Source: Rhodothermales bacterium | GTDB lineage: Bacteria; Bacteroidota; Rhodothermia; Rhodothermales; BA12 | NCBI GenBank assembly: GCA_014879465.1 | Contig: JACSSA010000109.1 | Location: forward strand, 3,891 to 67,890 | Length of the DNA: 64,000 bases | Reading direction: 5' to 3' | Shown here: one piece after another, positions 21,805-55,185 of the stretch | How positions within the stretch are numbered: position 1 is the first letter of the stretch | How the letters are laid out: each line of letters opens with the position of its first letter | Notes under the pieces: model-generated | Database searches by the model: none | Seen by the model: only the letters and a program-made list of their open reading frames with translations | What the model was told of the DNA's origin: nothing | Program-made: the position numbers and the translations under genes

Positions 21805-22541
21805 TCAGCGCCCGTGGTCGTCGCTCCACGCCTCCAACATGTGCATTCTCGCACGATGCCGCGTGGCGGCTTCTTCGCTGGAGCCGATGGGAGCGCCGGG
21901 CGGCGTGGCCAGCGGCGCGGGGCTGCCGGACGGCGGCGGGAGCGGTCGGCTGAGCACCTGTTCGACGCGGTCGGCGACGTAGCGCCCCCACGCGTGATCG
22001 ACGCTGTTGAGGGCGGGAGCAAGCGAGGAGAGGCGTTGGGCGCGCCGGAGCACCGCGCGCAGCGCCTCGCGGGTTTGGGCGCGCACGAGCGGGGCGGCAT
22101 TCGGGTGGACTTCGAGCGTGAGCAGCGCGTCGAGATGCGCCGTTTGGACGGCACGGACGAGGTGGCGGTCGGCATCGGTTGTCGGGCGCGGATCGATCCA
22201 TACGGTGCGGATCGTGGCGTCGAGGACGGTGCCGAACGTCGGCAGGCTCTCGTCCGAAAACGTAGCACGTTGGAAGGCCAGACGGGCGGCGCGGTCGGGA
22301 CGCAGCAGCTCGTCGAACACCATGGCGGCGGCCACCTCGGCAGGGGCGAACGGATCGAACGCTATGCCGGTGCGGCCGGCGAAGTCTTCGCGTCCTTCTT
22401 CGTAGCCCGGTGGGCGCGGCGCGAGAGCGCGGATCTCGGGCGACACGCGCAGCGCGTCGGGGGTGAGGGTGGAAAGCAGCAGCCGCAGCGCCGCGTGCTG
22501 GTCGGCAGCGGGCACGGCGTGGGCGTAGCCGTCGCTGCCGT
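21805..22541 (-). pseudogene. Zinc-dependent metalloprotease, C-terminal fragment (gene split by the prophage)
   Basis: The frame is open from the phage junction (..GSDGYAHAVPAADQHAALRLLL...) to the stop at 21805. It joins in frame with 53406-55185. Confidence 0.8.
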
Positions 22542-22567
22542 TGAACCGAACCGCGAAAAATCGGCGG

Positions 22568-22582
22568 CTGAACTGAAAGAAA
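22568..22582. repeat. Left subterminal inverted repeat CTGAACTGAAAGAAA
   Basis: Perfect reverse complement of 53365-53379. It starts 26 nt from the proposed left terminus (22542). Confidence 0.9.
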
Positions 22583-22588
22583 CGACTC

Positions 22589-24679
22589 TTAGACGTACGG
22601 CCCCCAACCGAGGTCTTCCATGGGCGGGAGACGGAAAGCAGGAGGCCGGTTGACCGACGCTGCGCCGAGGTCGGTGCGGATGATCGTCACCGCCTCCTCG
22701 CTCACGCGCGCCAGTCGCCCGGCAACACGCACGGTGCCGCGGGCGGCCTCGACATCAACGTGCAGGGGAAGGATGCGACCTCCCGCTTCTTGGTCTGCAA
22801 GGCGAGCCAGCACATCGGCCACGTCTGCAATCTGGAGCGAGGCGGGACGAATCAGCGCGGTGTATTCCTCTTGCCCCCGACCGCCACGCAGCAGTAGCAG
22901 CGCCTCGCGTCCCGCCAGCAGGTGGAGCGGCTCGCCTGCATCGGGCGCGGGCACCTCGTCGTGCATCCAGTAGCGAACGGCAGCGCCGCCTTCTGCCAGC
23001 AACGCACCCGGATACCCCTGCAGTGGCCCGCTGCCAAGACTCACTTCCAAGCCAGCCGACTGCTCGGACTCCAGCAGTCGAAGGGGTGCGGCACCTTCGC
23101 GGGCAACCTCGTAGCGTTCGCTGTCGGCGTCCAGCCGCCCCGGCTCGCCCGCTCGCAAGCGCAGTTGGGCCATAAGCGCCGTGCCTCCCAAATACCATTC
23201 ATTGCGCAGCGCGTCGTAGATGCAAACCCATACGATGGCCGCCGACGGCAGCGCATTCGTGAGTAGATCAACCCGCGTCCACGTGTCGGCGGGAAAGGTC
23301 TCGGTTTCCACGTGGGACTCTTCGGTCGTCCACTCCAGCGTCGGATCTTCGGCGTTGGACGAACGTCGCGCATAAAGCGTCGGCAGCCCGTCTCGAATCG
23401 CCAAGATGCGTACACAGTAGGCGTGCGGCGTTTGGAGGGCGTAGCCGAAGAACCCCAGCGCCACAGCGTAGCCCTCGGGCAGCGATGCCGCCGGGGAGGT
23501 TGCACGTTGCGGCGGCAAGCCACCCTCTTCGCCGCGAAGTGCCACAGGGATGCGTAGCGCCTCAGCACCAAGAGTCTGGCCACCCTCGGCTGCTCCCGGA
23601 ATCATCGCGGTGGTCCGGGATGCTGCGGAATCTACCGCCCACTCTGCCGACGAGGTCGAAGAAACCACGCCGGTCTCGGACTTCCCGTGCCGGAAGGTGA
23701 GCGCCAGCCGGTCAGGCAAATCCGGCACGCGCACCTGCCCACCTTTGAGCCGCCGAGACGTCACGTTGAGGCTGGCACGCTCCAGCACCACGGCTTCCGC
23801 GGTGCCCTCTACACCGGCGGGGTATGCCCATCCTTCAATGGACGCGGTGTCCTCCACGAGCAGGCGGCGCTCCACGAGCAGCCACACGCCGAATCGCTGA
23901 ACCAGACAGGCGCCAAATGCGGTGGCGATATGCGCCAGCACGTCGGCAGCAGAGGACGACTCGGCACGCGGCAAGGCGTCGGCCTCGTCGACCACTCGCA
24001 CCCAACGCGACGGCGGCGCTTGCACCTGCGCCAACGGGTCGGCGGTGGCGGCCATCCCGCGTGCCCACGTCCGAACGCACGCAACAAGCGGAAGGCCAGT
24101 CGATGCGAGTGCCCGGCGCAGCCACCAGATCAGCGTTTGCGTGCCGTCGGCCAGCATGTCTTCGGCTTGGAGCAGCGTTTCCACGAGCGGCACGGTGGCC
24201 AGCGGCCCCAGTCCGCATGCAGCCGCAACCTCCACCGACGAGGCCCAGCGGTTGAGCGAGCGCGAGCGGGGAGATTCAAGAACTGGGCCTTCCACCAACA
24301 CCCGCTCTGGCGCAGCTCCTTCGTACAGCCGCACACGCACGCGATAGGCTTGGGGGGCGGCCAGCAGCGCCTCGGCCACGTGCAGCGAGCGCGGCGCCAC
24401 GTGTATCGACGCCACGGTGGCCAGCAGCGGTTCGATCGGAGAAATGCGCGGCGTTCCGCGCTGCACGGACACGCCTTCCTTCGCCACGTAGAAGCGCTCG
24501 ATCTCGCCTTCGTACCCCTCCTTGAGCACATCTACCACGACGCCAAGCCCTTCGCGCTGCACCACATAAGAGCGGTAGCGGACGTTGCCCCACGACGGAG
24601 CGACGTTGCCCATCGTGGCGGCTTCGCCGCTCGATGCGAAGTACGTAGATACCGAGGCGGGATCGAGGTGCTGATCCAT
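22589..24679 (-). CDS. Phage tail protein (distal tail/host-specificity candidate)
   Basis: ATG at 24679 overlaps the upstream stop (ATGA). 696 aa, the last gene of the tail operon. The track ORF extension to 25162 lies in a junk frame. Confidence 0.55.
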   Translation of the reverse strand: MDQHLDPASVSTYFASSGEAATMGNVAPSWGNVRYRSYVVQREGLGVVVDVLKEGYEGEIERFYVAKEGVSVQRGTPRISPIEPLLATVASIHVAPRSLHVAEALLAAPQAYRVRVRLYEGAAPERVLVEGPVLESPRSRSLNRWASSVEVAAACGLGPLATVPLVETLLQAEDMLADGTQTLIWWLRRALASTGLPLVACVRTWARGMAATADPLAQVQAPPSRWVRVVDEADALPRAESSSAADVLAHIATAFGACLVQRFGVWLLVERRLLVEDTASIEGWAYPAGVEGTAEAVVLERASLNVTSRRLKGGQVRVPDLPDRLALTFRHGKSETGVVSSTSSAEWAVDSAASRTTAMIPGAAEGGQTLGAEALRIPVALRGEEGGLPPQRATSPAASLPEGYAVALGFFGYALQTPHAYCVRILAIRDGLPTLYARRSSNAEDPTLEWTTEESHVETETFPADTWTRVDLLTNALPSAAIVWVCIYDALRNEWYLGGTALMAQLRLRAGEPGRLDADSERYEVAREGAAPLRLLESEQSAGLEVSLGSGPLQGYPGALLAEGGAAVRYWMHDEVPAPDAGEPLHLLAGREALLLLRGGRGQEEYTALIRPASLQIADVADVLARLADQEAGGRILPLHVDVEAARGTVRVAGRLARVSEEAVTIIRTDLGAASVNRPPAFRLPPMEDLGWGPYV

Positions 24680-26280
24680 CAGGGTAAGATGAGCGGGTGT
24701 AAATGATTTTCGGCCAGCGCGGCTGACGCGCCCATGGCGGGCACGAGCGTCGCGGACTCTTCGGACTCGCCACCTGCACCCACGGCCACAGCGCGGATGC
24801 GGGCGGGCAGATGCAGCGGCCACTCGATCTCGCCGCCATTCACCCACGCGGGCGGTTCGGCTCCGGCTTGCGCCGTCACCACGTACTCGGTCGCTCCTTC
24901 GGCCTGCGCATCCACGAGCAGACCGTAGATCGTGCGCTGCACCTCCAGCGCAGGCACGGGCGGGACATAACCCACGCCCCCGTCCACAATGGCTACGGAG
25001 AGCGGGTGGGACTCGGTGTAACCGCCGCCCGGCACGATGGTCCTCACCTCGATCTGCTGCGGCCCCGCGCCCAGATAGATGGGCCACGTTGTGCCCACGA
25101 GCGCCGCCACCTCTTGCCCAGCAACGCGCAGCGACGCTCCTTGCCCGCCAAGCCTCACCCACGATGCCACAAACTTACCCGGCGAGGGCGTCTCTTCCAC
25201 TGTGAGCACGGGCGCGAGCGCGCCGCCAGCAGAAGCCAGTGGCGGCACGGCCAGTGTAAATGGCCGAACGTCGCGCATCGTGGCGTTCGAGAGGCTCACA
25301 TCAAACGGGCGGTTTTCCACGTCCTCGATGCGTAGCGAAACGGTTGTCGCCTCGGCGCGGCTCTCGTAGGCCAGCGACACCCGCACCGCCTGTCCGGGCG
25401 GCACCTCCTGAGCATCACCACGGTTCGAGCAGATCAGCACGGGGTACGCGCCGTGGTTCACAGCGTCCGCCTCGATCACCGCCGAGATGCCCGCGCCCTG
25501 AGCATTGGGCGGCAACGTGTAGGTGGAGTAGGCGCACAGGCCGGATCGTGCCGTGCCCGCGTATCTACGCCCACCCGCGATCGTGGCTGTGGACGTGCCC
25601 GGCGCGGTCGAGTAGTTGGCCGCCGACCCGAGCACCAGCGCGTGCTCGGCCGGGTCGGCGGCGGCGGTAAACGACGGCACGAACGTGCGTGTCACGCCGA
25701 AGCCCTCTTGCATCGTCCACCGCGCCGCGCCCGCCACCGGCACTTCCCCGGCCAGCATTCGAATGAGCGCGGCCTGTGGGTTGGTGGCGGCCTCGGGGTA
25801 GCGGGTGAGAATAGCGGCGCGTGCGGCCACGCCAAACGACTGGGCCAAAACGGAGAGGTCGTGCGTCTCGGTGCAGCACCACACGCCCGTGGAGTACCCC
25901 GTGTAGCGATTGCCCGCCGCCGCTGTGCCGACCGTCGTTGCCACAACGGGCCACACCAGATCGGGGGCGCTGAACACTTCGTCGTAGCCGTTTCCAACAG
26001 CGCCAATAAGCACCGCTCCCGCAGCATCGGCAGCGGCGGCAAGACCTTGCAGATTCACAACGTCGAACCCTCCAAAGAGGATTTTGCATCCGTCAGCGAG
26101 GGCTGCCGCTACCGCCGTCCCTGTTCGGCTCTGCGAACGGTCGTAAATCTGCACCGTCCACCCTTCTCCGGGAGCGGACGCAAGGAAATACTGCTCCATG
26201 TCCCAAGCGTGCCCGGCGAGAGTGCCCGTGGCAGCGGCGTTGTAGGTGGCTGGGTCGTCCAGAAGGGCGGCGATGGGCAT
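24679..26280 (-). CDS. Phage tail protein
   Basis: 533 aa, translationally coupled on both sides and positioned between the fibre and the distal tail gene. Confidence 0.55.
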   Translation of the reverse strand: MPIAALLDDPATYNAAATGTLAGHAWDMEQYFLASAPGEGWTVQIYDRSQSRTGTAVAAALADGCKILFGGFDVVNLQGLAAAADAAGAVLIGAVGNGYDEVFSAPDLVWPVVATTVGTAAAGNRYTGYSTGVWCCTETHDLSVLAQSFGVAARAAILTRYPEAATNPQAALIRMLAGEVPVAGAARWTMQEGFGVTRTFVPSFTAAADPAEHALVLGSAANYSTAPGTSTATIAGGRRYAGTARSGLCAYSTYTLPPNAQGAGISAVIEADAVNHGAYPVLICSNRGDAQEVPPGQAVRVSLAYESRAEATTVSLRIEDVENRPFDVSLSNATMRDVRPFTLAVPPLASAGGALAPVLTVEETPSPGKFVASWVRLGGQGASLRVAGQEVAALVGTTWPIYLGAGPQQIEVRTIVPGGGYTESHPLSVAIVDGGVGYVPPVPALEVQRTIYGLLVDAQAEGATEYVVTAQAGAEPPAWVNGGEIEWPLHLPARIRAVAVGAGGESEESATLVPAMGASAALAENHLHPLILP

Positions 26281-26744
26281 TACGAAAGCAGAAGGATATC
26301 CAGTTGATGCTTGATGCCGTAGGCAGTCGCGTCGCCCTCAAAGGTCACGGTGATCCCTGTGACGAGGCCAGAACTGTAGGAATAGTCCAACCGAGCACGA
26401 CGCCACGACCCGGCCACCCGCACCCATGCGAGAAGTTTGTCGGGTACGGGGGTGTTGAAAACGACCGAGAAATAACGATCCGCGTTGAATATGCCTGTGG
26501 CGTTGGTTGCGTTCACGCCAATCTCGTCCACAGGGACGCTGCGAGTGTAGGACGACCCAACCTGATCCCACACAATGCGAGATCGCTTGAAGCCCACGCC
26601 CGACACGCTCACCGGCTCGCCCGATGCGTTGCCGATCTGGTGGACGATGGAGCCGTCTGTCTTTTGGACGAACCGCTCGTGGCCCGCAGCGAGCGGTTCG
26701 GCGATTTGCGATTCGGGGCGGAGCGTGCGCTGGGTGCCAGCCAT
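26280..26744 (-). CDS. Phage tail-associated hypothetical protein
   Basis: 154-aa beta-rich sequence in the tail operon. Confidence 0.5.
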   Translation of the reverse strand: MAGTQRTLRPESQIAEPLAAGHERFVQKTDGSIVHQIGNASGEPVSVSGVGFKRSRIVWDQVGSSYTRSVPVDEIGVNATNATGIFNADRYFSVVFNTPVPDKLLAWVRVAGSWRRARLDYSYSSGLVTGITVTFEGDATAYGIKHQLDILLLS

Positions 26745-26756
26745 TGAAGTAGGGGC

Positions 26757-28574
26757 TTAGGATGTCTTGATGTAGCCTGCGAGCGACAGCACATAGCCGC
26801 CGCCACCTGCGTTGAGTTGGCCGCCAAAGTTTCCAACTGTACCCGCCGGTACGGTGACAGTGAATGACTGCGGGGGGCCCCCCAGCGGAGTTACGGTCAC
26901 GGCGACGGTGCCTGTGCCATCGGTTTCGAGCACGATATCCCACGTCGAGCCGTCCGAGGGGGTGCCTGTTAGCGTGGTGTTGAGCGGAGATGGGCTTCCG
27001 CCTGTGCCACCCACATACTGTACCCCGGTGAACACCCATCCGCCAGCCTGACGAATGATGTGAAACCGTGCTCCGTTCGTCTGGCTGGCGGATGTCGAGC
27101 AGGCGTAGAAGCCCGCGAACATCGAGGTGGTGTTACCAACAGACACCCGCGCCTGAAAGCGTTGGGCGAGCGCCCCGATGTTGGCGAGGTGTCCAGACGT
27201 GCCGCCGCTCGCTGTCGCACCGGTAGAGGTGCACTCGTAACCGCTGGTGGTAGTCGTCTTGCCGCTCCGGTTCACGGCGATAAAATCGGAGTAGAAGATT
27301 CGTTGCCAATGCGCGTGGACGCTCGGCGGGAACGTCGAGGGCTTGCCCGTGATACGATCCCACGCCGCACCCGTGAGGTCGAGCACGGCGTTGCCCGCCT
27401 GCGATTTATGGACGACCCAGACGTGTCGTTCCACGTCGTCCGGGTCGATTTGCACCAACCCGTGCGGGTTTGTGTTGGGGTTTGGCCCGTACCCGCCGTC
27501 CGAGTCGAGGAGCACGGGTAGAATGACAGGCTTGCCCGTCACCTCATCCCACAGCGCCCATCCACGCGGGGGCCGGTCGGCCTCGTCCTCGTAGACATCG
27601 ACCGGTAGCGCGTCGAGCGTGACAGTCAGTCCCCCTGCCTCAAGCACCGCATCATCGAGCATGTTCTGGCCCGCGAGCCATCCGAGGTAGTGGCGCAGCG
27701 CCTCCACTTCCGCTGCTCCAGCCGCATCGTAGCCGCCGTAGGCCGTAATGACGATCACCCCTTCCGCCGCGAGCGCGTCGAGCGCGTGGCCTGTGTCCTC
27801 GACGCCAAGCGGCTCGCCCTCGGCATCGAAGCCGAGCACGAGTTTCGTCTTGCCCCCATCGCTTGCGATCGCCAGCGCCGCCGTGGTCGCAACCGCCGCA
27901 TCGCCGAAGGTGCGCCCGTCCGTGCTGCCCGCGAAAGCAGCGTCCGCCCACACGGTGCGGCTGGGCAGGTTCAGCCCCGCCACCGAGTTCACCAGCGTCT
28001 GTACCGCCCCACGTTTGGCCTCCACCGCCGCCAAGTCTTGCGCCGTCTGCGCCGCTGCATCGCTGGCCACCTGCGCGTGGCCGCTGGCATCGTCACGGGC
28101 CTGCACCGCGACACCGGTAGCAGCGTCCGCATCGTCGCGAGCCTCTTCGGCGCCCTCGCGGGCAGTCTGCGCCTGCACGACCAGCAGTTCGGCATCGTTG
28201 CGATACTCCTCTGCATCGGTGGCGGCCGTTTCCGCAGCGCCTGCGGCCAGCGTGGCCGTGTAGGCACTTTGCTCTGCGTCGTCTGCCGCACCGCTGGCCG
28301 CTTGGGCATGGCCAGCGGCATCGTCGCGGGCCTGCACCGCAACACCGACGGCAGCGTCCGCATCATCGCGAGCCTCTTCGGCGTCCTGTGCGGCCTGCTG
28401 GGCCGCCAGCGTCAAATCACCCGCTACGCCGACACGCTCGTCCACGTGCTCGGAGAGTTGGTGCACGTCGCCCGCCATCGTGCGGAACGTCTCGTCCACT
28501 TCGGCAGCCGTGAGGCCGCCGGGGCGCTGGGTGAACCCCAACGGGGGATCGGGAAACGGGGTGAACTTGCTCAT
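26757..28574 (-). CDS. Tail fibre protein with duplicated coiled N-terminal repeat
   Basis: A 29-aa unit AEEARDDADAA[VT]GVAVQARDDA[AS]GHAQ[AV]AS occurs twice. The C-terminus is beta-rich, and the gene follows the tape measure gene. Confidence 0.7.
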   Translation of the reverse strand: MSKFTPFPDPPLGFTQRPGGLTAAEVDETFRTMAGDVHQLSEHVDERVGVAGDLTLAAQQAAQDAEEARDDADAAVGVAVQARDDAAGHAQAASGAADDAEQSAYTATLAAGAAETAATDAEEYRNDAELLVVQAQTAREGAEEARDDADAATGVAVQARDDASGHAQVASDAAAQTAQDLAAVEAKRGAVQTLVNSVAGLNLPSRTVWADAAFAGSTDGRTFGDAAVATTAALAIASDGGKTKLVLGFDAEGEPLGVEDTGHALDALAAEGVIVITAYGGYDAAGAAEVEALRHYLGWLAGQNMLDDAVLEAGGLTVTLDALPVDVYEDEADRPPRGWALWDEVTGKPVILPVLLDSDGGYGPNPNTNPHGLVQIDPDDVERHVWVVHKSQAGNAVLDLTGAAWDRITGKPSTFPPSVHAHWQRIFYSDFIAVNRSGKTTTTSGYECTSTGATASGGTSGHLANIGALAQRFQARVSVGNTTSMFAGFYACSTSASQTNGARFHIIRQAGGWVFTGVQYVGGTGGSPSPLNTTLTGTPSDGSTWDIVLETDGTGTVAVTVTPLGGPPQSFTVTVPAGTVGNFGGQLNAGGGGYVLSLAGYIKTS

Positions 28575-32230: not shown

Positions 32231-32246
32231 CGTGTGCGAGGTCGGT

Positions 32247-32753: not shown

Positions 32754-32761
32754 GACGGGCG

Positions 32762-33196: not shown

Positions 33197-33199
33197 GGG

Positions 33200-33400: not shown

Positions 33401-33405
33401 GGGCG

Positions 33406-43929: not shown

Positions 43930-43932
43930 GCA

Positions 43933-45262: not shown

Positions 45263-45273
45263 CCCCTACGACC

Positions 45274-45534: not shown

Positions 45535-45536
45535 CC

Positions 45537-45998: not shown

Positions 45999-46003
45999 CC
46001 GTT

Positions 46004-47659: not shown

Positions 47660-47729
47660 CCCAACCGGGGGCAGTGCCGTGATCCAGACGGCACCGCCCC
47701 CTCTCTGTCCACCCAAGCCCCTGCAACCC

Positions 47730-48677
47730 ATGCAGATCAAGTCCCACCTGCTGCGGCACTTCGGTGTCCAGCCGGGCGCAATCTACGCCGACAACACGTC
47801 GGACGTAATCGTCCACGAGTTGGCCGAAGGCATCCGCGCCAAGGGCCTCATCGCGCTCACCGGCAAGTCCGGCTCCGGCAAGACCTTCCTGCTGCGCCAA
47901 GCGCTCGACCGCCTCGACGGGGCCGTGAGCGTGGTGCGCGTGGCGGACATGTCGCCGCGCCGCGCCGAACTTCCGAGCGTGCTGTCGGCCATCGCGTACG
48001 ACCTGTCGAACGAAACGCCCAAGCACACGATGGAGGCCCGGAGCCGCCAAGCGCTGCGGCTCATGCACCAGCACACCGTGCTCCAGCAGCGCCCGGTCGT
48101 GATCGTCGTGGAGGACGCGCACCGCTTCCACGCCGCCAGCCTGAACGAACTGAAGCTGCTCCGCGAAGGCACCTACGCCAACCACTCCCACCTGTGCGGC
48201 ATCGTGCTGCTCGGCTGGGCCGAACTGGAGGGCAAGATCAAGCACCACACCGCCGTACGGCTGCGCACCGAGGTCGTCTCCCTCGACCGAACGGATGGCT
48301 ACATGGGGCACGAGCAGCGCGTGGCCTACCTCGACGCGCTTTACGGCTACGCGCTCACGGGCGGCGTCCGGGAGATCCTCGCGGCTCGGTGCGAAACGCC
48401 CGAGGAGATGAACGGAGCCGTTGCCGATGCGATGCAGCGGGCCTACTACGCGGGCCTGCACGGAGTAGACGAAACCATCGTGCCGCCCACGTCCGAGCAG
48501 GCCAGCGGCAACGGCATCAGCCAGCGCCAGATCGCCAAGGCCAGTGGCCTCAGCCCCGCCACGGTCAACCGCGTGCTCAACGGCGGCGGCTCGCCCGATC
48601 AGCGTCAAAAGGTTGCCGATGCCTATCAGCACCTCGGTGCCCCGGCGGGTCTGTCCCTCATCACCAAAGCCGCCTGA
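47730..48677 (+). CDS. MuB/TniB-like AAA+ transposition ATPase with C-terminal HTH
   Basis: Walker A GKSGSGKT, Walker B VVIVVEDAH, C-terminal ISQRQIAKASGLSPATVNRVLNG. Confidence 0.8.
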   Translation: MQIKSHLLRHFGVQPGAIYADNTSDVIVHELAEGIRAKGLIALTGKSGSGKTFLLRQALDRLDGAVSVVRVADMSPRRAELPSVLSAIAYDLSNETPKHTMEARSRQALRLMHQHTVLQQRPVVIVVEDAHRFHAASLNELKLLREGTYANHSHLCGIVLLGWAELEGKIKHHTAVRLRTEVVSLDRTDGYMGHEQRVAYLDALYGYALTGGVREILAARCETPEEMNGAVADAMQRAYYAGLHGVDETIVPPTSEQASGNGISQRQIAKASGLSPATVNRVLNGGGSPDQRQKVADAYQHLGAPAGLSLITKAA

Positions 48678-48682
48678 TCGCC

Positions 48683-48907
48683 ATGGCCATTCCCCAACCG
48701 GGCACGCCCGACCACAACGCGCTGCTGCTGCGCTTCCGGCACGCTTCGCGCATCCGACCGCGACGCGGCGACACGCTCACGTTCGAGCGCTTCGCCCTCA
48801 ACCCAGACGCCCACGAGGCCAGCGCCCGCGCCCGCATCGCCAACTGGTGGACGTTGCCGCCCCAATCGCCCCGAACGCCGCGCGCTCCGCGCCTCGTCCT
48901 CAACTAA
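48683..48907 (+). CDS. Hypothetical 74-aa protein
   Basis: ATG at 48683 inside track ORF 48194-48907, fitting the operon spacing. Confidence 0.4.
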   Translation: MAIPQPGTPDHNALLLRFRHASRIRPRRGDTLTFERFALNPDAHEASARARIANWWTLPPQSPRTPRAPRLVLN

Positions 48908-48926
48908 CCCCTTTTCCGCCCCTTCC

Positions 48927-49481
48927 ATGTCCAACACCGCTGTTTCCGACGCCCTCGCGGCTACCGACCACGCCCTCGACCGCCTCGCCTCCGAGCCGGT
49001 CATCACGTCCCTTTCCGATCTGGATGCCGCGCTCGGCAAGCTGAGCCGACTCAAGGCAGGGATCGACCAGATCACGGCGGAAATGAACGCGCAGATCGCC
49101 GCCGTCCAGACCCGGTACCAGAAGAAGCTCCTGCCGAAGCAGGAGGAGTTCGGCACGCTCGAACGTGTCGTTACCGCCTTCGCGCTCGCCAACGAAGCCG
49201 CGCTGCTTCAAGGGCAGAAGGGCAGCACGGCCACCCGCCCGGCAGGCAAACTCGCGTTCCGAGAGGGACGCGCCAGCGTCCAGATCGACATCGAGGAGTG
49301 CGACGCTGTGGCGGCACTCCGAGACGCCGGATTCGGCGAGTACGTCCGCACCGCCGAGACCGTGGACAAGGCCGCGCTGCTCCTCTGGCCCGGCGCGTCC
49401 GACGTACTCGACGCCATCCCCGGCATCGCCATCGTCCGCCCGGCGCGAACCGTCGCCGTCAAGCTCAACGCCGCCGCCTGA
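48927..49481 (+). CDS. gam: Gam-like host-nuclease inhibitor
   Basis: N-terminal coiled segment ...KAGIDQITAEMNAQIAAVQTRYQKKL... followed by ...GKLAFREG...V.I. 184 aa. Confidence 0.7.
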   Translation: MSNTAVSDALAATDHALDRLASEPVITSLSDLDAALGKLSRLKAGIDQITAEMNAQIAAVQTRYQKKLLPKQEEFGTLERVVTAFALANEAALLQGQKGSTATRPAGKLAFREGRASVQIDIEECDAVAALRDAGFGEYVRTAETVDKAALLLWPGASDVLDAIPGIAIVRPARTVAVKLNAAA

Positions 49482-49909
49482 TGGACGCCACCACCCTTCC
49501 TCCGGCTACGCCGGGCATCACCGAGTGGGTGCCCGGCCTCGTCGTGTCCGACCCAGCCACCCGCGACGGCGTGCCGATGATCGTGGACTCTCGGTACAGC
49601 GTCTCGGACTTGCTGCGGTATCTCGGCGGCGAGATGGAACGGGACGAGGTGTGCGACCTGATCGGCATCACCGACGACCAGCTGCGGGAGATCCTGCGCT
49701 GGGTGGCCAGCGTCGTCCACGACCAAGGCAAGCCGACGCCCGCCCGCTATGTGAGCGGCCTTCGCCGCCAAGCGCTGGCCCTTGCCGACGTGTGGAACGG
49801 GATGCTGCGCCAGCCTCACAACTCGCGTCTCTACCGTGCTGCTGCTCGGCTCGACGAGGTCGCCCCTGATCTCGTCGCGGCCATCCGGCGCGTCATCAAC
49901 CACGCATAG
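49481..49909 (+). CDS. DUF433-like protein
   Basis: DPATRDGVPMIVDSRYSVSDLLRYLGGEMERDEVCDLIGITDDQLREILRW resembles the DUF433 core. Confidence 0.45.
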   Translation: MDATTLPPATPGITEWVPGLVVSDPATRDGVPMIVDSRYSVSDLLRYLGGEMERDEVCDLIGITDDQLREILRWVASVVHDQGKPTPARYVSGLRRQALALADVWNGMLRQPHNSRLYRAAARLDEVAPDLVAAIRRVINHA

Positions 49910-49922
49910 ACCCCTGCTCCCC

Positions 49923-50585
49923 ATGATCATCTGCTGGGACATCGAGACCTGTCCGCTGGCGGTGGAGACCTTCTCCGACCGCCAGCGCCGCCGGCACAAC
50001 CTGCTCCTCGACGCCGAGCGGGCCAAAGCCCCGAACGCTCCGCTGGAAGACCTCAGCCGTCGGGTGCGGAGCCTTCACCCCGCCCTCGGCTGGATTTGCT
50101 GCATCGCCGCTCAGCGCATGGACAGATACACCGGCGAACTTTTCCCCCCGAAGGCGTGGACAGCCGCGACGCCCGCAGACGAGGAGGCCATGCTGCTCGC
50201 CTTCTGGAAGGACATCCGGCAGTTCAGTGGGATGGAAACGTGGGTGACGTTCAACGGCAAGGGCTTCGACGTGGAATGGCTTGTCACACGCTCGCTGCAT
50301 CACCGCATCCAAGTCTCGAACAACCGGATGCTCCAGCGCAACCCCTACTCGAACGAAGGCCACGTAGACCTCGCGGGTCTCTGGAAGAAAGGCATGGGCC
50401 TCGCCGACGTGTGCGACCTGCTGGGCGTCGCCTCGCCCAAGACGGCCCTCGACGGGGGAGGCGTGGCCGAGGCTGTGGCGAGCGGACGCATCGCGGACGT
50501 GGCCACGTACTGCATGGCAGACGTGACGGCCACGCTCGAATGCTACCTCATCGCCCACCAGTTCGCTTCTCCCGCCTTCCGCTGA
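49923..50585 (+). CDS. 3'-5' exonuclease, PolB-exonuclease-domain-like (RNase H fold)
   Basis: WDIET (Exo I), TFNGKGFD (Exo II) and YCMADV (Exo III). Confidence 0.7.
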   Translation: MIICWDIETCPLAVETFSDRQRRRHNLLLDAERAKAPNAPLEDLSRRVRSLHPALGWICCIAAQRMDRYTGELFPPKAWTAATPADEEAMLLAFWKDIRQFSGMETWVTFNGKGFDVEWLVTRSLHHRIQVSNNRMLQRNPYSNEGHVDLAGLWKKGMGLADVCDLLGVASPKTALDGGGVAEAVASGRIADVATYCMADVTATLECYLIAHQFASPAFR

Positions 50586-50590
50586 TCCCC

Positions 50591-51001
50591 ATGGACTACC
50601 TCATCAACCACGAAGAGCGCGACCCCGACGCTGACTATCCAGAGTGCTCCATCTGCGGAAACGATCTGTTCTGGGAGCACTGCGACCAATGCAGCGGTGA
50701 GGGCGTCTCGCACCACGATTGCGGAGAAGACATCTGCTGCTGCCGCTACCCGAAGGCTAACGTCCGCTGCTGGCAGTGCGGGGGCAAGGGTGGATGGTGG
50801 CTATGCCTCAGATGCCACGCATCGGCCATCGGACGCACCCGTGTGACCCTGAAAGGCACGACGGGCGAGGGCGAATCCTACACGCTCAGCGTGTCTCTCG
50901 GCCAGAACCCGACCGATGAGACCGTCCGTGCCCTTCACACCATCGCTGAGGTAGTTGCTGCTGCCGCGAAGCGGGGGCTACTCACGGACCCTGACGCCTG
51001 A
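50591..51001 (+). CDS. Cys-rich protein with DnaJ CR-type zinc-finger motifs
   Basis: Two CxxCxGxG motifs (CDQCSGEG, CWQCGGKG) plus CSICGN and CLRCH. Confidence 0.55.
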   Translation: MDYLINHEERDPDADYPECSICGNDLFWEHCDQCSGEGVSHHDCGEDICCCRYPKANVRCWQCGGKGGWWLCLRCHASAIGRTRVTLKGTTGEGESYTLSVSLGQNPTDETVRALHTIAEVVAAAAKRGLLTDPDA

Positions 51002-51006
51002 CCGCT

Positions 51007-51225
51007 ATGGGCACGTACCATCAAGATCACAGGGGTGGCCGGGTGACGGTCAAGCGCGAGGAGTATAGCATCTCGTGGCGCACCGGCGTGCGCCGGTACG
51101 ACGGTTGGAGGCTGGCGGTCGAATACCCCGACGGCAAATCCCGGAAAGGTGCGCGGTACGCTACGTTCGTCAGAGCCATGTCCGCCGGTCTCCAATCGCT
51201 GAACGACTGGCGTCCGGTTTCGTGA
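51007..51225 (+). CDS. Hypothetical 72-aa protein
   Basis: ORF 6 nt after the previous stop, followed by a terminator. Confidence 0.45.
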   Translation: MGTYHQDHRGGRVTVKREEYSISWRTGVRRYDGWRLAVEYPDGKSRKGARYATFVRAMSAGLQSLNDWRPVS

Positions 51226-51248
51226 GCGTCCGTCCGGCTGCTCCTGAG

Positions 51249-51287
51249 CAAGGGTGTCGAGGGTGATCCTCGGCACCCTTGTTTGTT
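51249..51287 (+). terminator. Rho-independent terminator between the early genes and the Ogr-like gene
   Basis: Stem caagggtgtcgagg / cctcggcacccttg (14 bp with 1 mismatch), loop gtgat, followed by TTTGTT. Confidence 0.6.
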
Positions 51288-51400
51288 ACCGCACGCTGGA
51301 CGCCGTACCTTGCAGCCGAACGCCAACCGCACCCCACTCCGTTTCCTTTCATCGTCGTAGTGGCTTGCGGTCACGACCCGACGGGCATCCGCGTGCTCGT

Positions 51401-51595
51401 ATGCTCGACTCCGAGCGTTCAAACTCCACGTCCAACGCCGAGCTGCGAGGTTTTGCCTGCCCCGAGTGCGGCAGCGGAAGCCGCGTCTCCCAAACGCGCA
51501 GTCTCGGCAGCGTGGTGGTCCGCGAGCGCGTGTGCCGCAACCCCGCCTGTCGTCACGTCTTCGACACCCGCGAGATCGCCGCCCGCGTCCCATGA
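51401..51595 (+). CDS. Ogr/Delta-like zinc-finger transcription activator candidate
   Basis: FACPECGSGSRVSQTRSL...RERVCRNPACRHVFDT matches the CPxC...(R)TSR...C.N..C..F pattern of P2 Ogr. 64 aa from the ATG at 51401. Confidence 0.6.
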   Translation: MLDSERSNSTSNAELRGFACPECGSGSRVSQTRSLGSVVVRERVCRNPACRHVFDTREIAARVP

Positions 51596-53079
51596 ACCTC
51601 TTGGCCCTCATCGCGGCGCTGGAGGCCCACGTGGACCAGCTGCTCGCCTCCATCGTCGCTGCCGACGCCAACGCCGCCCGGCTCGCCGCTCTGCGCCGCG
51701 CCGCCAGCAAAGCCCTGATCGATCAACTCGACGCGATCGACCCCGGCGACCTTGCGCAGCTCAGCCGCCGCGAACTGGAGCAGTTGGTGATCGACACCCT
51801 GCGCCCCACCCTCGACGGGTTCCGGGCGGATCAAGCCTCGCTGCTCACCGAACGCACGGTCGATCTGGTCACACGCACCCGCGATTTCTACGACGGGCAG
51901 GGCCTCGACACAGCGGGCATCGCCGAACGCGCCCGCCGGACTGAAGACGCCCAGAAGATCGGGCAGTTGCTTCGCCGCCGTGGCGACGATGGCGCAGACA
52001 CGCTACACCGGCACATCTCCGACACCCTCAGCGATGCCATCCGGCGTGGCCACGTGGACACCCGCGCCATCGCCGAAGAGGTCGAGACGAGAGCCGAGCA
52101 GTTTGCCCAGCACGCCTTTGTCGAGACGCAGGCCGCCGTCTCCGCCTACAACCAACTCTACCGCAACGAACTGGCGGACGAGGCCGGGCTGACCCACTTC
52201 CTGTACTTCGGCAGCACCAGCGCCAACACACGCCCGTTTTGCCGCGCCCACCTCGACCGCGTCTTCTCGCTGGAGCAGATCGACCAGATGGACAACGGGA
52301 TGCTCAACCCCGTGCGCATCTACAAAGGCGGCTATAGGTGCCGCCACTCGTGGCTTCCTGTAGACCCGGAATGGGACGAAGACCTGCGCCAGCGCACAAC
52401 GCCCGCCGACATTGGCCCGCACGTAGTTACCCTCGGCAAAGAGGGCGACCGCACCATCACGATTATCCCATCTGAAGCGTACCGCGCTCGACTCTCACGC
52501 CAGAAAGAACTTCGTGCCGATGGCTACACCCAGTTCATCGATGCTCCAGACGAGAGAGGCTTTGTCGCCAAACACAAAACCCACATCGATGCCGTGGCCG
52601 ATGCCGTAGACCAGAATCAGGAAAAAGTACTCGACGCTCTCAGGCGCTCTGAGAGGGCGGCAAAACCCCTCAGTCAACTCGGATACGAGGTGCGGTTGGA
52701 CCGGCGGGTCAAGAATCGCAAAGCCAAGCCGGACACGCCCGACGGTGAAGCCGACGTGGATCTGATCGTCACCGGCGGGCCATTCCCCAAAGACAGCCAC
52801 GTCGAGGCGAAGCAGCCCGACAGCTTTAGTCGCCGTGCTTTCGAGCGCGTGCTGAGCGAGAGCAAAGGGGACAGCGGTGTCTACCAGAGCTTCGACTACG
52901 TAATCAATCTCGTACAGGAGATGCCAGATGAAACCTATGCGCGTGCACTCGGTGGAGCACTGTCGTGGCTGCGGCGGCGAGCGGAGGAAGAACCCGGAGC
53001 GCCGTATCGCGTTTTCATCCTTCACTCTTACACCGCCCCGCATCTGGAGCAGGTCCAATGGCCACCCCGCAAATCTTAG
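51592..53079 (+). CDS. MuF-family minor head protein fused to a C-terminal PD-(D/E)xK nuclease-like toxin-type domain
   Basis: MuF core TRPFCRAHLD...GGYRCRHSWLPV lies at aa 213-256. The C-terminal extension contains LGYEVRL...KPDTPDGEADVDLIV...HVEAKQP...YVINL. Confidence 0.7.
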   Translation: MNLLALIAALEAHVDQLLASIVAADANAARLAALRRAASKALIDQLDAIDPGDLAQLSRRELEQLVIDTLRPTLDGFRADQASLLTERTVDLVTRTRDFYDGQGLDTAGIAERARRTEDAQKIGQLLRRRGDDGADTLHRHISDTLSDAIRRGHVDTRAIAEEVETRAEQFAQHAFVETQAAVSAYNQLYRNELADEAGLTHFLYFGSTSANTRPFCRAHLDRVFSLEQIDQMDNGMLNPVRIYKGGYRCRHSWLPVDPEWDEDLRQRTTPADIGPHVVTLGKEGDRTITIIPSEAYRARLSRQKELRADGYTQFIDAPDERGFVAKHKTHIDAVADAVDQNQEKVLDALRRSERAAKPLSQLGYEVRLDRRVKNRKAKPDTPDGEADVDLIVTGGPFPKDSHVEAKQPDSFSRRAFERVLSESKGDSGVYQSFDYVINLVQEMPDETYARALGGALSWLRRRAEEEPGAPYRVFILHSYTAPHLEQVQWPPRKS

Positions 53080-53258
53080 CCGACCTTCTGGAGGATGTCG
53101 ATTACGACCAGTCCGGCTACACGGAGCAGGATCGGTGTGCCGTCTATGGCTACGCGAAGGCGCTATTCGACCTCCGCCACATCGACGTGGACCAACTGGA
53201 CGACGTGCGCAAAAAACTCGGGCTTTCGGTCGCTGCCGTTGACGAGTTGAAGGTCTAA
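53058..53258 (+). CDS. Small acidic protein, candidate immunity protein
   Basis: ATG at 53058 overlaps the MuF-toxin gene end by 22 nt. 66 aa, MATPQILADLLEDVDYDQSGYTEQDR... Last gene before the phage end. Confidence 0.45.
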   Translation: MATPQILADLLEDVDYDQSGYTEQDRCAVYGYAKALFDLRHIDVDQLDDVRKKLGLSVAAVDELKV

Positions 53259-53364
53259 CGCGCAGTTTCCGACGCAGGAACGCGCAGAACTGCTCAACGG
53301 CGCACACGGCACAGAGACGCACGCAGGGAGGAAATCGCTGAATACGGGCCAGATTCGCCCACCA

Positions 53365-53379
53365 TTTCTTTCAGTTCAG
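53365..53379. repeat. Right subterminal inverted repeat TTTCTTTCAGTTCAG
   Basis: Reverse complement of 22568-22582. It ends 26 nt from the proposed right terminus (53405). Confidence 0.9.
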
Positions 53380-53405
53380 CCCCTCTCATCTCTCACCTCC
53401 CCTCA

Positions 53406-55185
53406 CGTCGCCGCGCAGGGCGTAGCGGTAGGTTTGGCCGCCGAGCAGCTTGGCCGCGCCTGCCACGGCGTAGCGGTGGCGCAGATACAGCGGCACGAAC
53501 GCTTCTTCGAGCAGCGACACCGGGCGTCCCGGACGCAGCACGGCGTCGGAGAAGCGGTCGAGTGCGGCGCGGCGCACGGCGAGGTCGCGGCGGAGCGCGT
53601 CGAGGGCGTCGGAGCCGTTGTCCCACTGCACGCTGCGAGGTTCGACGCCGCCGGCGTTGTCTCGATCCGACAGGTACACGAGGCCTTGGCGGCGCACGTC
53701 CTGCAAGACGCCCGCCACGAAATCCGCTTCCGACTGCCCCGGCGCGGGCTGGCCGTAGCCCATCCGGATGGCGGCGATGTCCCACGCACCCACGCCCACA
53801 GCGTAGGCCGAATCGAGCGAGATCGAGCCGTCGGGGCGGACGATGGCCAGCGGGGCCGGGTAGTCCATTACGCTCGCCCGCCCGTTTGTGGACGCGGCGA
53901 AGTTGTGGGCGAGGCCGAGGGTGTGGCCGACCTCGTGGGCGGCGAGTTGCCGCAGCCGCGCCAGCGCCATCTGCGCCATCGGGTCGTCGGCGGGCACGCC
54001 GTCGCGGTAGGGCGCGAGCAGCCCCTCGGCGATCAGGTAGTCTTGCCGCACGCGCAGGCTGCCGAGGCTGACGTGCCCTTTGAGGATTTCGCCGGTGCGC
54101 GGGTCGGTGACCGCCGCGCCGTAGCTCCAGCCTCGCGTGCTTCGGTGCACCCACTGGATCACGTTGTAGCGCACGTCCATCGGGTCGGCGCTGTCGGGCA
54201 GGATCTCGACGCGGAAGGCGTTGCGGAAGCCCGCCGCCTCGAATGCCGTCGCCCACCACCGTGCGCCGTCAAGCAGCGCCGAGCGGACGGGTTCGGGCGT
54301 GCCGTTGTCGAGGTAGTAGACAATCGGTTCGACCACGTCGGACACTGCCGCCGACGGATCGCGTTTTTCGAGGCGATGGCGGACGGTCAGCCGCTGCCGC
54401 AACTCCGCGCCCAGCGGCACGGAGTAATCGGCGTACGACACGTCGAAGAAGCCGCTGCGCGGGTCGAAACGGCGCGGCGTGTACCCGGCATCGGGAAGGC
54501 GGACGAACGAATGCCGCTCGCGCAGCGTCACGGCATGCCCGTCGGCGGCGACGCTCCGCACCAGCGCGCCGGGGTTCGACGAGGCGAAGGTCAACCGTCC
54601 CTCCAGTTCCGTGTTGTCGGGGAACGCCTTCGTGGCCTCCATCCACACCGACGAGCGGCCGGCGTCGAGCGAGAAACTGCCTTGGTTGGACTGCTGGAGG
54701 CGCTGCACGACGCCGTGCGCGTCGCGGAGGACGAACGGCGTGGCGTCCACCAGCACCCGCCCGTTGTCTTCGGCCACGATCGGAAAGGCGTGCAGCACGC
54801 CCTCGGCAAAGGCCTCGCGCACCGAACGTCGCTCCAGCGGGTTGGCGGACGAGGCGCGGTAGTCCACGTTCGGCGCGACGAGCAGCATCCGGCTTCCCGC
54901 CCGCTCGAACCGCACCACCGTCGACGGGCCGAGTTGCCCGCGGTCCAGCCCGATGTCGTTCGACCCCAGCCCGGCCGGCAGCGACACCTGGTAGAGAAAC
55001 TCCTCGTCCGTCCGCCCGATTTCGAGGTAGACCGTGCCGCGCCGGACGTCCGTCATGACGGGGAAGAAGCCGTCGTCGCGGGCCATGCCCGCCGTGAACG
55101 CCGCAACCGTGGGCGGGACGGCGGGCGTCGTTTGGGCGTAGACGGCGGCGGGCGCGAGGAGCAGGATCGGCAGAAGACGGCGCAT
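53406..55185 (-). pseudogene. Zinc-dependent metalloprotease, N-terminal fragment (signal peptide plus HExxH domain)
   Basis: MRRLLPILLLAPAAVYAQ signal and AAHEVGHTLGLAHNF zinc site. The host-derived frame ends at ...YRYALRGD and then runs 6 codons into the phage end to a TGA. Confidence 0.85.

What the first reader, a model, noticed from the sequence alone, without database searches (positions are those of the whole stretch)
21805..55185. Mu-like prophage has transposed into a secreted zinc-metalloprotease gene; in-silico excision restores one 838-codon frame
The minus-strand ORF 53406-55185 has a signal peptide and an HEVGHTLGLAHNF zinc site, and its host-derived sequence ends at ...TYRYALRGD. 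The minus-strand frame 21805-22541 resumes with GSDGYAHAVPAADQHAALRLLL... Removing 22542-53405 plus one copy of the flanking CGT gives 1780+737-3 = 2514 nt = 838 codons. The junction reads ...ALRGDGSDGYAHAV... with no stop. About 837 aa fits what I recall for the large Bacteroidota-type zinc-dependent metalloproteases. Everything in between is phage. The result is a single-nucleotide-resolution insertion map and an inactivated host exoprotease.
Basis: partly seen in the sequence, partly recalled or inferred. Interest (0 to 1): 0.75.

Follow-up and report, generated by a model that had tools for sequence, protein, structure and literature searches.

The report
Transposable prophage splits a metalloprotease gene
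A 30.9-kb transposing (Mu-style) phage sits inside a zinc-protease gene of a Rhodothermales bacterium; a near-identical relative with the gene intact fixes the insertion point to the base, which is textbook behaviour except that the phage duplicates 3 target bases, not the usual 5 or 6.

Summary
Removing 22542-53405 plus one CGT joins minus-strand pieces 53406-55185 and 21805-22541. The result is an 837-aa DUF5117/DUF4953 metzincin. An 837-aa orthologue (98% identical) reads the same across the junction. Its contig aligns to both window flanks with exactly 3 overlapping bases.

The insert is a complete transposable siphophage-type prophage. It has TG...CA tips and one 17-nt inverted repeat 24 nt from each tip. 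It encodes a DDE transposase, a MuB-like ATPase, Gam, GemA, an S24 repressor and Mu-type portal, protease and terminase genes. No integrase was seen among the genes annotated.

The same phage (at least 99.99% identical) is joined to three other right flanks and two other left flanks in other assemblies. Each flank starts exactly at the same tip base, so the phage occupies several sites.

"Mu-like" needs qualifying:
- The transposase is not MuA-type. It is rve/TnsB-like with D-34-E spacing.
- The target duplication is 3 bp.
- The genome is short (30.9 kb).
- The early module lies against one end and is transcribed towards it.

Loss of protease activity is inferred, not shown. The biology is ordinary; the phage lineage is a modest new variant.

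The parts
53406..55185 (-). 5' part of the host zinc-metalloprotease gene (codons 1-593 and the first base of codon 594). It carries the signal-peptide-like N-terminus, DUF5117, the HEVGHTLGLAH zinc site (H417, E418, H421, H427) and the SVMDY Met-turn. The annotated ORF runs on to 53386, adding VRGGER and a stop from the phage tip.
   Evidence: identical to P0004, which NCBI names 'zinc-dependent metalloprotease [Rhodothermales bacterium]'
21805..22541 (-). 3' part of the same gene: residues 594-837 and the stop, with 22539-22541 being the second CGT copy. In the model of the intact orthologue this region is mostly helical.
22539..22541 (.). Left copy of the 3-bp target-site duplication (CGT on the + strand).
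   Evidence: The empty-site contig L001 has a single copy; the two blastn alignments overlap by 3 nt
53406..53408 (.). Right copy of the 3-bp target-site duplication (CGT).
22542..53405 (.). Transposable prophage, 30,864 bp, with termini 5'-TG...CA-3'.
22542..22582 (+). Left tip, TGAACCGAACCGCGAAAAATCGGC-GGCTGAACTGAAAGAAA. The 17-nt repeat (22566-22582) is the likely transposase-binding site.
   Evidence: The tip base is confirmed by two other left junctions (L046, L047)
53365..53405 (-). Right tip (reverse complement TGAGGGGAGGTGAGAGATGAGAGG-GGCTGAACTGAAAGAAA). The 17-nt repeat lies at 53365-53381, the same 24 nt from the tip as on the left.
   Evidence: The tip base is confirmed by three other right junctions (L054, L055, L056)
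46004..47659 (+). DDE transposase, 551 aa, with D146, D240 and E274.
   Evidence: phrog_310 'transposase' 2e-20; weak Pfam rve hit; triad invariant in 67 family members; family profile matches TnsB and retroviral integrase cores
47730..48677 (+). MuB-like transposition ATPase (AAA_22 domain plus a C-terminal HTH).
   Evidence: phrog_296 'DNA transposition protein' 5.5e-28 and Pfam AAA_22 4.7e-18; gene call
48927..49481 (+). Mu Gam-like DNA-end protection protein.
   Evidence: Pfam Phage_Mu_Gam 1.5e-23
45537..45998 (+). GemA-like protein.
   Evidence: Pfam GemA scores 27.0 bits against a cutoff of 27; it sits in the same position in relatives
42918..43613 (-). CI/LexA-type repressor (HTH_3 plus Peptidase_S24), divergent from the early operon.
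37665..42323 (+). Packaging and lysis arm: DUF1804 small terminase (37665-38111), large terminase (38111-39817), Mu-type portal (39833-41062), endolysin (41140-41727) and a 199-aa ORF.
22589..37450 (-). Head and tail arm: Mu gp36-like (36947-37450), Mu-like protease (35448-36503), major head protein (34428-35405), small head/tail ORFs, tape measure (28571-32230), and distal tail proteins of 605, 154, 533 and 696 aa. No match to a tail-sheath family was found.
51401..53258 (+). Ogr/Delta-like zinc-finger ORF (51401-51595), a 495-aa protein carrying what reads like a Mu F (head-morphogenesis) motif plus a C-terminal extension (51592-53079), and an overlapping 66-aa ORF (53058-53258). These are the last genes before the right tip.
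   Evidence: The 'Mu F-like' label rests on reading the motif ...RPFCRAHLDRVF...GGYRCRHSW and on a faint Pfam Phage_Mu_F mark on the matching gene in L042. Pfam itself gives no hit

Best explanation
A temperate transposable phage of 30,864 bp integrated by DDE transposition into codon 594 of a chromosomal gene of a Rhodothermales bacterium. The gene encodes an 837-aa protein with a signal peptide, DUF5117 and a DUF4953 metzincin domain. The phage is a siphophage by gene content.

Mechanism. The phage transposase (D146/D240/E274) probably binds the 17-nt repeat that lies 24 nt inside each TG...CA tip, helped by the MuB-like ATPase. It joined the two phage 3' ends to target phosphates staggered by 3 bp, and gap repair produced the CGT duplication.

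Consequence for the host. The gene is now split into a 599-aa truncated product and an orphan 3' fragment. The truncated product keeps its zinc site but lacks about 244 conserved helical residues. The protease is very probably non-functional.

State of the phage. The prophage looks intact and was recently active.

Shown here: the exact insert boundaries, the 3-bp duplication, the empty site in a 99%-identical genome, the gene content, and several different junctions for the same phage.

Inferred: binding of transposase to the 17-mer, replicative transposition and headful packaging during lytic growth, SOS induction through the S24 repressor, and loss of protease activity.
For: Frame restoration and junction identity with the intact 837-aa orthologue.

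Empty-site contig L001 aligns to both flanks with a 3-nt overlap.

The tips are TG...CA, and an exact 15-nt inverted repeat (17 nt on alignment) sits equidistant from both tips. About 0.33 matches at up to 3 mismatches are expected by chance in the whole window.

Gene content: transposase, MuB-like ATPase, Gam, GemA, S24 repressor, Portal_Mu, Mu-like protease, gp36-like, DUF1804 terminase, tape measure and endolysin. No integrase or resolvase family appears among the insert genes that were annotated.

The same phage at 99.99% identity or more meets different DNA exactly at 22542 in L046 and L047, and exactly at 53405 in L054, L052/L055 and L056. L052/L055 come from the same sample as the empty-site contig.

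Both window junctions recur in independent assemblies (L039, L040, L048, L051).

C-terminal residues lost from the protease include many columns that are invariant across 64 homologues. They are modelled confidently as helices (pLDDT 85.6, pTM 0.83).
Against: The 3-bp duplication is measured in only one insertion. The second candidate pair (CAG in L046 and L056) could not be verified.

The two short flanks of whole-phage contig k141_8593 show no duplication (CAG versus GAT). This is best explained by unphased assembly tips shorter than k = 141, but that explanation is not proven.

No expression or activity data exist for the truncated protease, which still carries the catalytic motif.

No virion or induction data exist.
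Confidence: 0.9

Rival explanations
1. The prophage integrated by site-specific recombination (an integrase acting at a short att core), and CGT is the core rather than a transposition scar.
For: A short direct repeat flanking a prophage is also what att cores look like.
Against: No integrase or resolvase family was found among the insert genes that were annotated. A DDE transposase, a MuB-like ATPase and Gam are present. The tips are TG...CA. The identical phage meets at least four different right flanks and three different left flanks, which is incompatible with a single att site.
Confidence: 0.01
2. The junctions are an assembly artefact: a metagenome-assembled genome (MAG) chimera that joined phage reads to a host contig.
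For: The source is a metagenome-assembled genome. Transposable phages are known to break and confuse assemblies (PMC7761591, quoting Hulo et al.). One whole-phage contig probably has chimeric tips.
Against: Both junctions are reproduced base for base in separate assemblies: Logan SRR10267784 and SRR10267785 and the NCBI MAG. The two flanks are the two halves of one gene with a clean 3-nt overlap relative to an independent empty site, which a random chimera would not give.
Confidence: 0.02
3. The insert is a defective ('grounded') prophage remnant fixed in the lineage and no longer mobile.
For: The same insertion is seen in several assemblies, and no induction data exist.
Against: No gene is disrupted in the window copy. 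Copies that are 99.99-100% identical sit next to other flanks in other samples, including the sample that holds the empty site. Both tips and both 17-nt repeats are intact.
Confidence: 0.08
4. The phage makes a canonical 5- or 6-bp duplication, and 2-3 bases were lost afterwards.
For: Described transposable phages give 5 bp (Mu) or 6 bp (B3) (PMC8705779).
Against: Both flanks match the empty site without any other change within 40 nt either side of the junction (one difference at 34 nt). The tips are intact and identical to those at other junctions. A secondary deletion would have to remove exactly host bases at a tip without touching the terminal CA or TG.
Confidence: 0.03

Closest known systems
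Bacteriophage Mu (Escherichia coli)
   Same: Temperate phage that integrates by DDE transposition into genes. Shared features are TG...CA termini, a short target duplication, a MuB-type ATPase, Gam, GemA, a Mu-type portal, Mu-like protease I, a gp36-like protein and a DUF1804 small terminase.
   Different: The transposase is not MuA-like. Pfam gives only a weak rve hit, MuA is absent from the 60 PDB matches shown, and the D-to-E spacing is 34 against 55 in MuA (the MuA figure is from my own knowledge). The duplication is 3 bp, not 5. The genome is 30.9 kb against about 37 kb. Only one obvious binding repeat is seen per end. No sheath gene was found, whereas Mu is a myovirus. The early module lies against one end and is transcribed towards it. 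The repressor is S24-type.
B3 / BcepMu-type transposable phages with Tn552-related (rve) transposases
   Same: An rve-superfamily transposase with DD35E-like spacing (that B3/Tn552 share this spacing is from my own knowledge), TG...CA ends and, for B3 and D3112, siphovirus-type structural genes. More than one genome layout is reported in that group; I know this only from the title of Toussaint & Van Gijsegem 2018 as cited in PMC7761591, and I have not read the paper.
   Different: B3 gives a 6-bp duplication (PMC8705779); here it is 3 bp. tblastn of this transposase against 50,697 phage records finds nothing at E <= 1e-5. The family is small, with 250 cluster representatives among 1.84 billion.
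Flavobacterium phage fF4 and fF4-like prophages of Bacteroidetes (PMC7761591)
   Same: A short (about 32 kb) putative transposable phage with a DDE transposase and an ATPase.
   Different: fF4 is a myovirus with a Mu-like colinear layout. GemA was not detected in it, and its ends and duplication were not determined. No sequence relationship to fF4 was tested here.
Burkholderia phage KS10 (PMC2628397)
   Same: A transposable phage found inserted in a host gene (an oxidoreductase), with 15-nt putative transposase-binding repeats near the ends. It shows that end and duplication rules vary among transposable phages.
   Different: KS10 lacks TG...CA termini and no flanking direct repeat was found. 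Here both are present.
TnsB (Tn7 and CRISPR-associated transposons), IS21 IstA and retroviral integrases
   Same: These are the best profile matches to solved structures. They cover the catalytic core, and for TnsB also the region that follows it.
   Different: These elements are not phages. Similarity is remote (E 1e-8 to 1e-6).

Membership tests
Transposable phages (Mu-like / 'Saltoviridae' sensu Hulo et al.) | DDE transposase encoded by the phage | tested here: met
   phrog_310 2e-20. D146, D240 and E274 are invariant in 67 homologues. The family profile matches TnsB and integrase catalytic cores.
Transposable phages (Mu-like / 'Saltoviridae' sensu Hulo et al.) | MuB-type ATPase next to the transposase gene | tested here: met
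   phrog_296 'DNA transposition protein' 5.5e-28 and AAA_22 4.7e-18. It is adjacent to the transposase in all relatives.
Transposable phages (Mu-like / 'Saltoviridae' sensu Hulo et al.) | 5'-TG...CA-3' genome termini | tested here: met
   The tips at 22542 (TG) and 53405 (CA) are fixed by the empty site and by five further junctions.
Transposable phages (Mu-like / 'Saltoviridae' sensu Hulo et al.) | Insertion at many unrelated sites | tested here: met
   Four different right flanks and three different left flanks were found for the same phage. The extra flanks are at most 141 nt long and come from metagenome assemblies.
Transposable phages (Mu-like / 'Saltoviridae' sensu Hulo et al.) | Short target-site duplication of 5 or 6 bp (PMC8705779) | tested here: not met
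   A duplication is present, but it is 3 bp. It was measured in one insertion only.
Transposable phages (Mu-like / 'Saltoviridae' sensu Hulo et al.) | Conserved GemA, Mor, portal and transposase set (as stated in PMC7761591) | tested here: inconclusive
   Portal_Mu scores 1e-45. GemA sits exactly at the Pfam cutoff (27.0 against 27). No Mor hit was found; there is a weak Ogr/Delta-like zinc-finger ORF instead.
Transposable phages (Mu-like / 'Saltoviridae' sensu Hulo et al.) | Genome of about 35-39 kb | tested here: not met
   The genome is 30,864 bp. fF4 (32 kb) and Martha 12B12 (33 kb) are also short (PMC7761591).
Transposable phages (Mu-like / 'Saltoviridae' sensu Hulo et al.) | Virion DNA carries variable host DNA at both ends (headful packaging from integrated copies) | not testable with these tools
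   There is only an indirect hint: contigs break at or within 141 nt of the tips in four samples.
Mu sensu stricto (MuA-type transposase) | MuA domain architecture and sequence similarity | tested here: not met
   No Mu-specific Pfam domain is found in this protein. Mu-transpos_C or Mu-transpos_C_2 appears in only 1-2 of 67 family members. MuA is not among the 60 PDB profile matches shown. No tblastn hit in 50,697 phage records.
DUF5117/DUF4953 zinc-dependent metalloprotease (metzincin) | Pfam DUF5117 plus DUF4953 across one polypeptide | tested here: met
   1.2e-35 and 4.3e-58 on the reconstructed protein. DUF4953 covers residues 402-708 and therefore spans the junction at 593.
DUF5117/DUF4953 zinc-dependent metalloprotease (metzincin) | HExxHxxGxxH zinc site and Met-turn | tested here: met
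   H417, E418, H421, G424, H427 and S438-V439-M440-D441-Y442 are invariant in 64 homologues. Calling M440 the Met-turn is my reading.
DUF5117/DUF4953 zinc-dependent metalloprotease (metzincin) | Proteolytic activity and export | not testable with these tools
   There is no solved relative. The signal peptide is read from MRRLLPILLLAPAAVYAQ only.

The most novel reading that the evidence does not exclude
This prophage may represent a distinct, largely undescribed family of transposable siphophages. About 250 transposase clusters belong to it, from hosts with 35% to 69% G+C. On this reading the TnsB/rve-like transpososome attacks the target with a 3-bp stagger, shorter than the 5-6 bp duplications reported in the papers read here. 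The family would also exist in two layouts that differ by an in-place inversion of the whole early (repressor to Mu F-like) module.
Probability: 0.45. Interest if true: 0.5.

Novelty: new variant of a known kind. Interest (0 to 1): 0.38.

Why it matters
For the host genome, a gene that NCBI names 'zinc-dependent metalloprotease' (599 aa) is really a phage-truncated pseudogene, so the strain probably lacks that enzyme.

For phage biology, this is a clean case: exact ends, an empty site, and several junctions of an apparently active transposable phage in Rhodothermales. I found no described transposable phage from this order, though my search was not targeted at it.

[quoted passage not shown] Screens built on those rules could miss this lineage.

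The phage ends and transposase could also become a genetic tool for a group that is hard to manipulate.

Tried and rejected
1. Alternative boundary. CGTCGC occurs on both sides, so the insert could have started at 22536 with a 6-bp repeat, giving RGDGY. This is rejected because the orthologue and the empty-site DNA read RGDGSDGY, and because other junctions fix the tip at 22542.

2. Internal rearrangement. I suspected the prophage was scrambled, because the transposase lies about 5.7 kb from one end and is transcribed towards it, with terminase and portal upstream of the repressor. This is rejected because the same order occurs in relatives whose transposases are only 30-39% identical. No internal copy of the end repeat exists.

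3. A second measurement of the duplication. The L046 left flank ends ..GAG CAG and the L056 right flank starts CAG CGC.., on the same strand and in the same codon phase. The joined sequence was not found in genome contigs or JGI metagenomes. The joined 50-aa peptide had no hit. This remains unverified.

4. The two flanks of whole-phage contig k141_8593 show no repeat. I judged them to be unphased assembly tips.

5. Tip sequences were absent from genome contigs, IMG/VR and JGI metagenomes. The 17-mer alone gave only scattered single-copy hits, which I did not inspect and presume random.

6. tblastn against the phage collection and a single-protein IMG/VR search with the transposase found nothing. 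The 67-sequence alignment was too diverse for the search for related loci.

7. Foldseek of the modelled protease against the PDB gave nothing significant, and a sequence search of the PDB gave nothing either.

Full report
OBSERVATION

The minus-strand ORF 53386-55185 encodes 599 aa. It begins MRRLLPILLLAPAAVYAQ, contains AHEVGHTLGLAHNF, and ends ...TYRYALRGD followed by VRGGER and a stop. The minus frame of 21805-22541 begins GSDGYAHAVPAADQHAALRLLL. Joining rc(53406-55185) to rc(21805-22538) gives 2514 nt, which is 837 codons plus a stop with no internal stop.

Pfam places DUF5117 at residues 83-274 and DUF4953 ('Met-zincin') at 402-708 on the joined protein. A single Pfam domain therefore runs across the junction at residue 593.

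A search of 5.8 billion proteins returned P0001: 837 aa, 98% identical, 100% coverage. It also returned hundreds of homologues of 800-880 aa, and the 599-aa fragment itself (P0004), which NCBI names 'MAG: zinc-dependent metalloprotease [Rhodothermales bacterium]'. In a 13-sequence alignment P0001 reads ...YRYALRGDGSDGYAHAV. P0001, P0002 and P0003 show no indel at the junction. More distant orthologues differ by 1-2 residues just after it.

EMPTY SITE AND BOUNDARIES

The contig encoding P0001 (L001, ENA ERZ27277024) aligns to the window in two pieces. Positions 1-3016 match window 56419-53406 at 98.6%. Positions 3014-13750 match window 22541-11804 at 99.1%. The pieces overlap by exactly 3 nt. 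The empty site reads ...CGCGGCGACGGCAGCGACGGC... In the window the upstream half ends ...GGCGACG and the downstream half starts ACGGCAGC....

The insert is therefore 22542-53405 (30,864 bp), flanked by a 3-bp duplication (CGT on the + strand). I considered a 6-bp alternative (CGTCGC, giving RGDGY), but this evidence excludes it.

TIPS

The insert begins TGAACC... and ends ...CCCCTCA, so the termini are TG...CA. Both ends carry GGCTGAACTGAAAGAAA at nt 25-41 from the tip, in inverted orientation. The exact 15-mer occurs nowhere else in the window. About 0.33 matches at up to 3 mismatches are expected by chance. No other shared subterminal repeat was seen.

WHAT THE INSERT IS

Gene calls and family hits give two divergent arms.

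Minus arm, 37450 down to 22589:
- Mu gp36-like protein
- a 146-aa ORF
- Mu-like protease (Mu-like_Pro_N)
- major head protein
- six small ORFs
- a 1219-aa tape measure
- distal tail proteins of 605, 154, 533 and 696 aa

No match to a tail-sheath family was found, so the phage looks like a siphovirus.

Plus arm, 37665 up to 53258:
- DUF1804 small terminase, large terminase, Portal_Mu (1e-45), endolysin, a 199-aa ORF
- on the opposite strand, an HTH plus Peptidase_S24 repressor
- small early ORFs and GemA (at the Pfam cutoff)
- a 551-aa DDE transposase
- a MuB-like AAA_22 plus HTH ATPase
- Mu Gam (1.5e-23)
- an exonuclease
- an Ogr/Delta-like zinc-finger ORF
- a 495-aa protein with a motif I read as Mu F-like, and an overlapping 66-aa ORF

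No integrase or resolvase family appears among the genes that were annotated. Host genes outside the insert are ordinary (E1 dehydrogenase, EF-G).

IS THE ODD GENE ORDER A REARRANGEMENT?

No. Logan contigs whose transposases are 33-38% identical (L042-L045) and IMG/VR contigs at 28-39% identity (L057-L070) keep the block g319-GemA-transposase-MuB-(Ogr)-Mu F-like.

Some relatives share the window's layout: terminase-portal-g199-repressor(-)-early module-transposase-MuB-Mu F-like-END. These are L045, L057, L058 and L066. Others (L059-L063, L065) start with the early module and carry the portal and terminase genes reversed downstream of the Mu F-like gene. The two layouts therefore differ by an in-place inversion of the early module.

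Tips of relatives resemble this phage's right tip, with the form TGA..GGGG..C-TG[CT]AACAAAT.

TRANSPOSASE TYPE

The transposase gives only a weak Pfam rve hit. tblastn finds nothing in 50,697 phage records. An exhaustive HMMER search finds 250 cluster representatives at E <= 0.001 among 1.84 billion proteins.

D146, D240 and E274 are invariant in 67 diverse members, which gives a D-34-E spacing. The family profile matches the following:
- TnsB of CRISPR-associated transposons (7svw), 1.5e-8, over the core and the region after it
- retroviral integrase cores
- IS21 IstA
- Tn7 TnsB

MuA is not among the 60 matches shown. The enzyme therefore belongs to the rve superfamily but is not MuA-like.

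EVIDENCE OF MOBILITY

The same phage at 99.99-100% identity meets different DNA exactly at the left tip in two contigs: L046 (ERZ27276648, preceded by ..GAGCAG) and L047 (ERZ27276649, preceded by ..GCGCTG). It meets different DNA exactly at the right tip in three contigs:
- L054 (ERZ27276648, followed by GATGCC..)
- L052/L055 (ERZ27277024, followed by CTCGTC..)
- L056 (ERZ23500049, followed by CAGCGC..)

ERZ27277024 is also the sample that holds the empty site.

These junctions fix both tip bases independently. They show that CGT is host sequence and not part of the phage, so the 3-bp duplication in the window is a direct observation and not a chance match. All extra flanks are at most 141 nt, which is the assembly k-mer size, as expected where an assembly graph branches at a multi-site element.

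Both window junctions are reproduced in independent assemblies (L039, L040, L048, L051).

LIMITS ON THE 3-BP RULE

Only one insertion has both flanks and an empty site. One further left/right pair shares CAG in the same strand and codon phase (L046 and L056). I estimate roughly a 1-2% chance of that occurring at random. The joined sequence could not be found in any collection.

The two tips of whole-phage contig k141_8593 show no repeat. I attribute this to unphased tips.

From the literature read here, Mu gives 5 bp and B3 gives 6 bp. That paper says TG-CA ends are conserved in all Mu and B3-like phages described until then, and it reports Leptospira prophages with TA-TA ends (PMC8705779). 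KS10 has neither a repeat nor TG...CA ends (PMC2628397). A 3-bp duplication is common in the IS3 family; that statement rests on my own knowledge.

CONSEQUENCE FOR THE HOST GENE

The 599-aa product keeps the N-terminal signal-like sequence, DUF5117, the HExxHxxGxxH site (H417, E418, H421, G424, H427) and SVMDY (M440). All of these are invariant in 64 homologues.

It loses residues 594-837, which include about 20 invariant columns. In an AlphaFold model of P0001 (pLDDT 85.6, pTM 0.83) these residues form a confident, mostly helical region. No solved relative exists by sequence or by fold. Loss of function is likely but not demonstrated. Export is inferred from the N-terminus alone.

MECHANISM

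Integration by DDE strand transfer with a 3-bp stagger, followed by gap repair, is shown by the scar, the tips and the several junctions. The following steps are inferred from gene content and from what is known of Mu:
- transposase binding to the 17-mer
- help from the MuB-like ATPase in target capture
- repression by the S24-type repressor and SOS-type induction
- replicative transposition
- headful packaging by the DUF1804 and large-terminase pair

VERDICT

A transposable phage knocking out a gene is textbook biology; Mu is named for it (my knowledge). The added value is a precisely bounded and apparently active member of a small, divergent family of transposable phages in Rhodothermales. 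It has a 3-bp duplication, a 30.9-kb genome and an unusual layout. I score it a new variant of a known kind, with modest interest.

Noticed in passing
window 51592-53258: The last genes before the right tip are a 495-aa protein and an overlapping 66-aa ORF. The protein has a motif I read as Mu F-like (…RPFCRAHLDRVF…GGYRCRHSW) and a C-terminal extension of about 200 aa that matches no family. The arrangement recalls MuF-fused polymorphic toxins followed by a small immunity gene; that is a recollection, not a test. A gene similar to the 495-aa one follows the MuB-like gene in most relatives.
   Followed up: partly
L057-L070, L042-L045 (relatives) versus window 37665-53258: The transposase family occurs in two genome layouts that differ by an in-place inversion of the whole early module (repressor to Mu F-like gene). 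The terminase/portal block is divergent from the protease/capsid/tail block in both layouts.
   Followed up: partly
L046 5728-6783 (= window 35448-36503): In the ERZ27276648 copy of the phage, the protease gene is called as two ORFs (193 and 150 aa) instead of one of 351 aa. That copy shows only two differences from the window copy over the 19.7 kb aligned, so it may be a defective variant.
   Followed up: no
window 28054-28156 and 28285-28387: A 103-nt direct repeat (84% identical, 231 nt apart) lies inside the 605-aa distal tail protein gene. It implies a duplicated segment of about 77 aa in the protein (blastn self-hits).
   Followed up: no
window 20836-21267 and 21294-21719 (minus strand): Two tandem paralogous small ORFs (143 and 141 aa) lie just downstream of the split protease gene. 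Both have signal-like N-termini and share a C-terminal motif (…GVCD.DCSDLDL.LYD..GNL…). They are conserved in the same position in L001. Pfam finds nothing for the 141-aa ORF; the 143-aa ORF was not scanned.
   Followed up: no
window 55310-56911 (+): A 533-aa protein is divergently transcribed from the protease gene. It has a signal-like N-terminus and about eight repeats of the form 'ELW.SDGT..GT'. Pfam gives only a weak ChW hit.
   Followed up: no
L041 (ENA ERZ27276649 k141_11736) = window 44710-53383: This contig stops 22 nt inside the right tip. Several other contigs stop within 141 nt outside a tip. This is the pattern of assembly breaks expected for a multi-site element, and it could be used to spot such phages.
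   Followed up: partly
window 53386-55185: Public annotation (NCBI, protein P0004) names the phage-truncated 599-aa ORF 'zinc-dependent metalloprotease' with no indication in the name that it is truncated. The last six codons and the stop come from the phage tip.
   Followed up: yes
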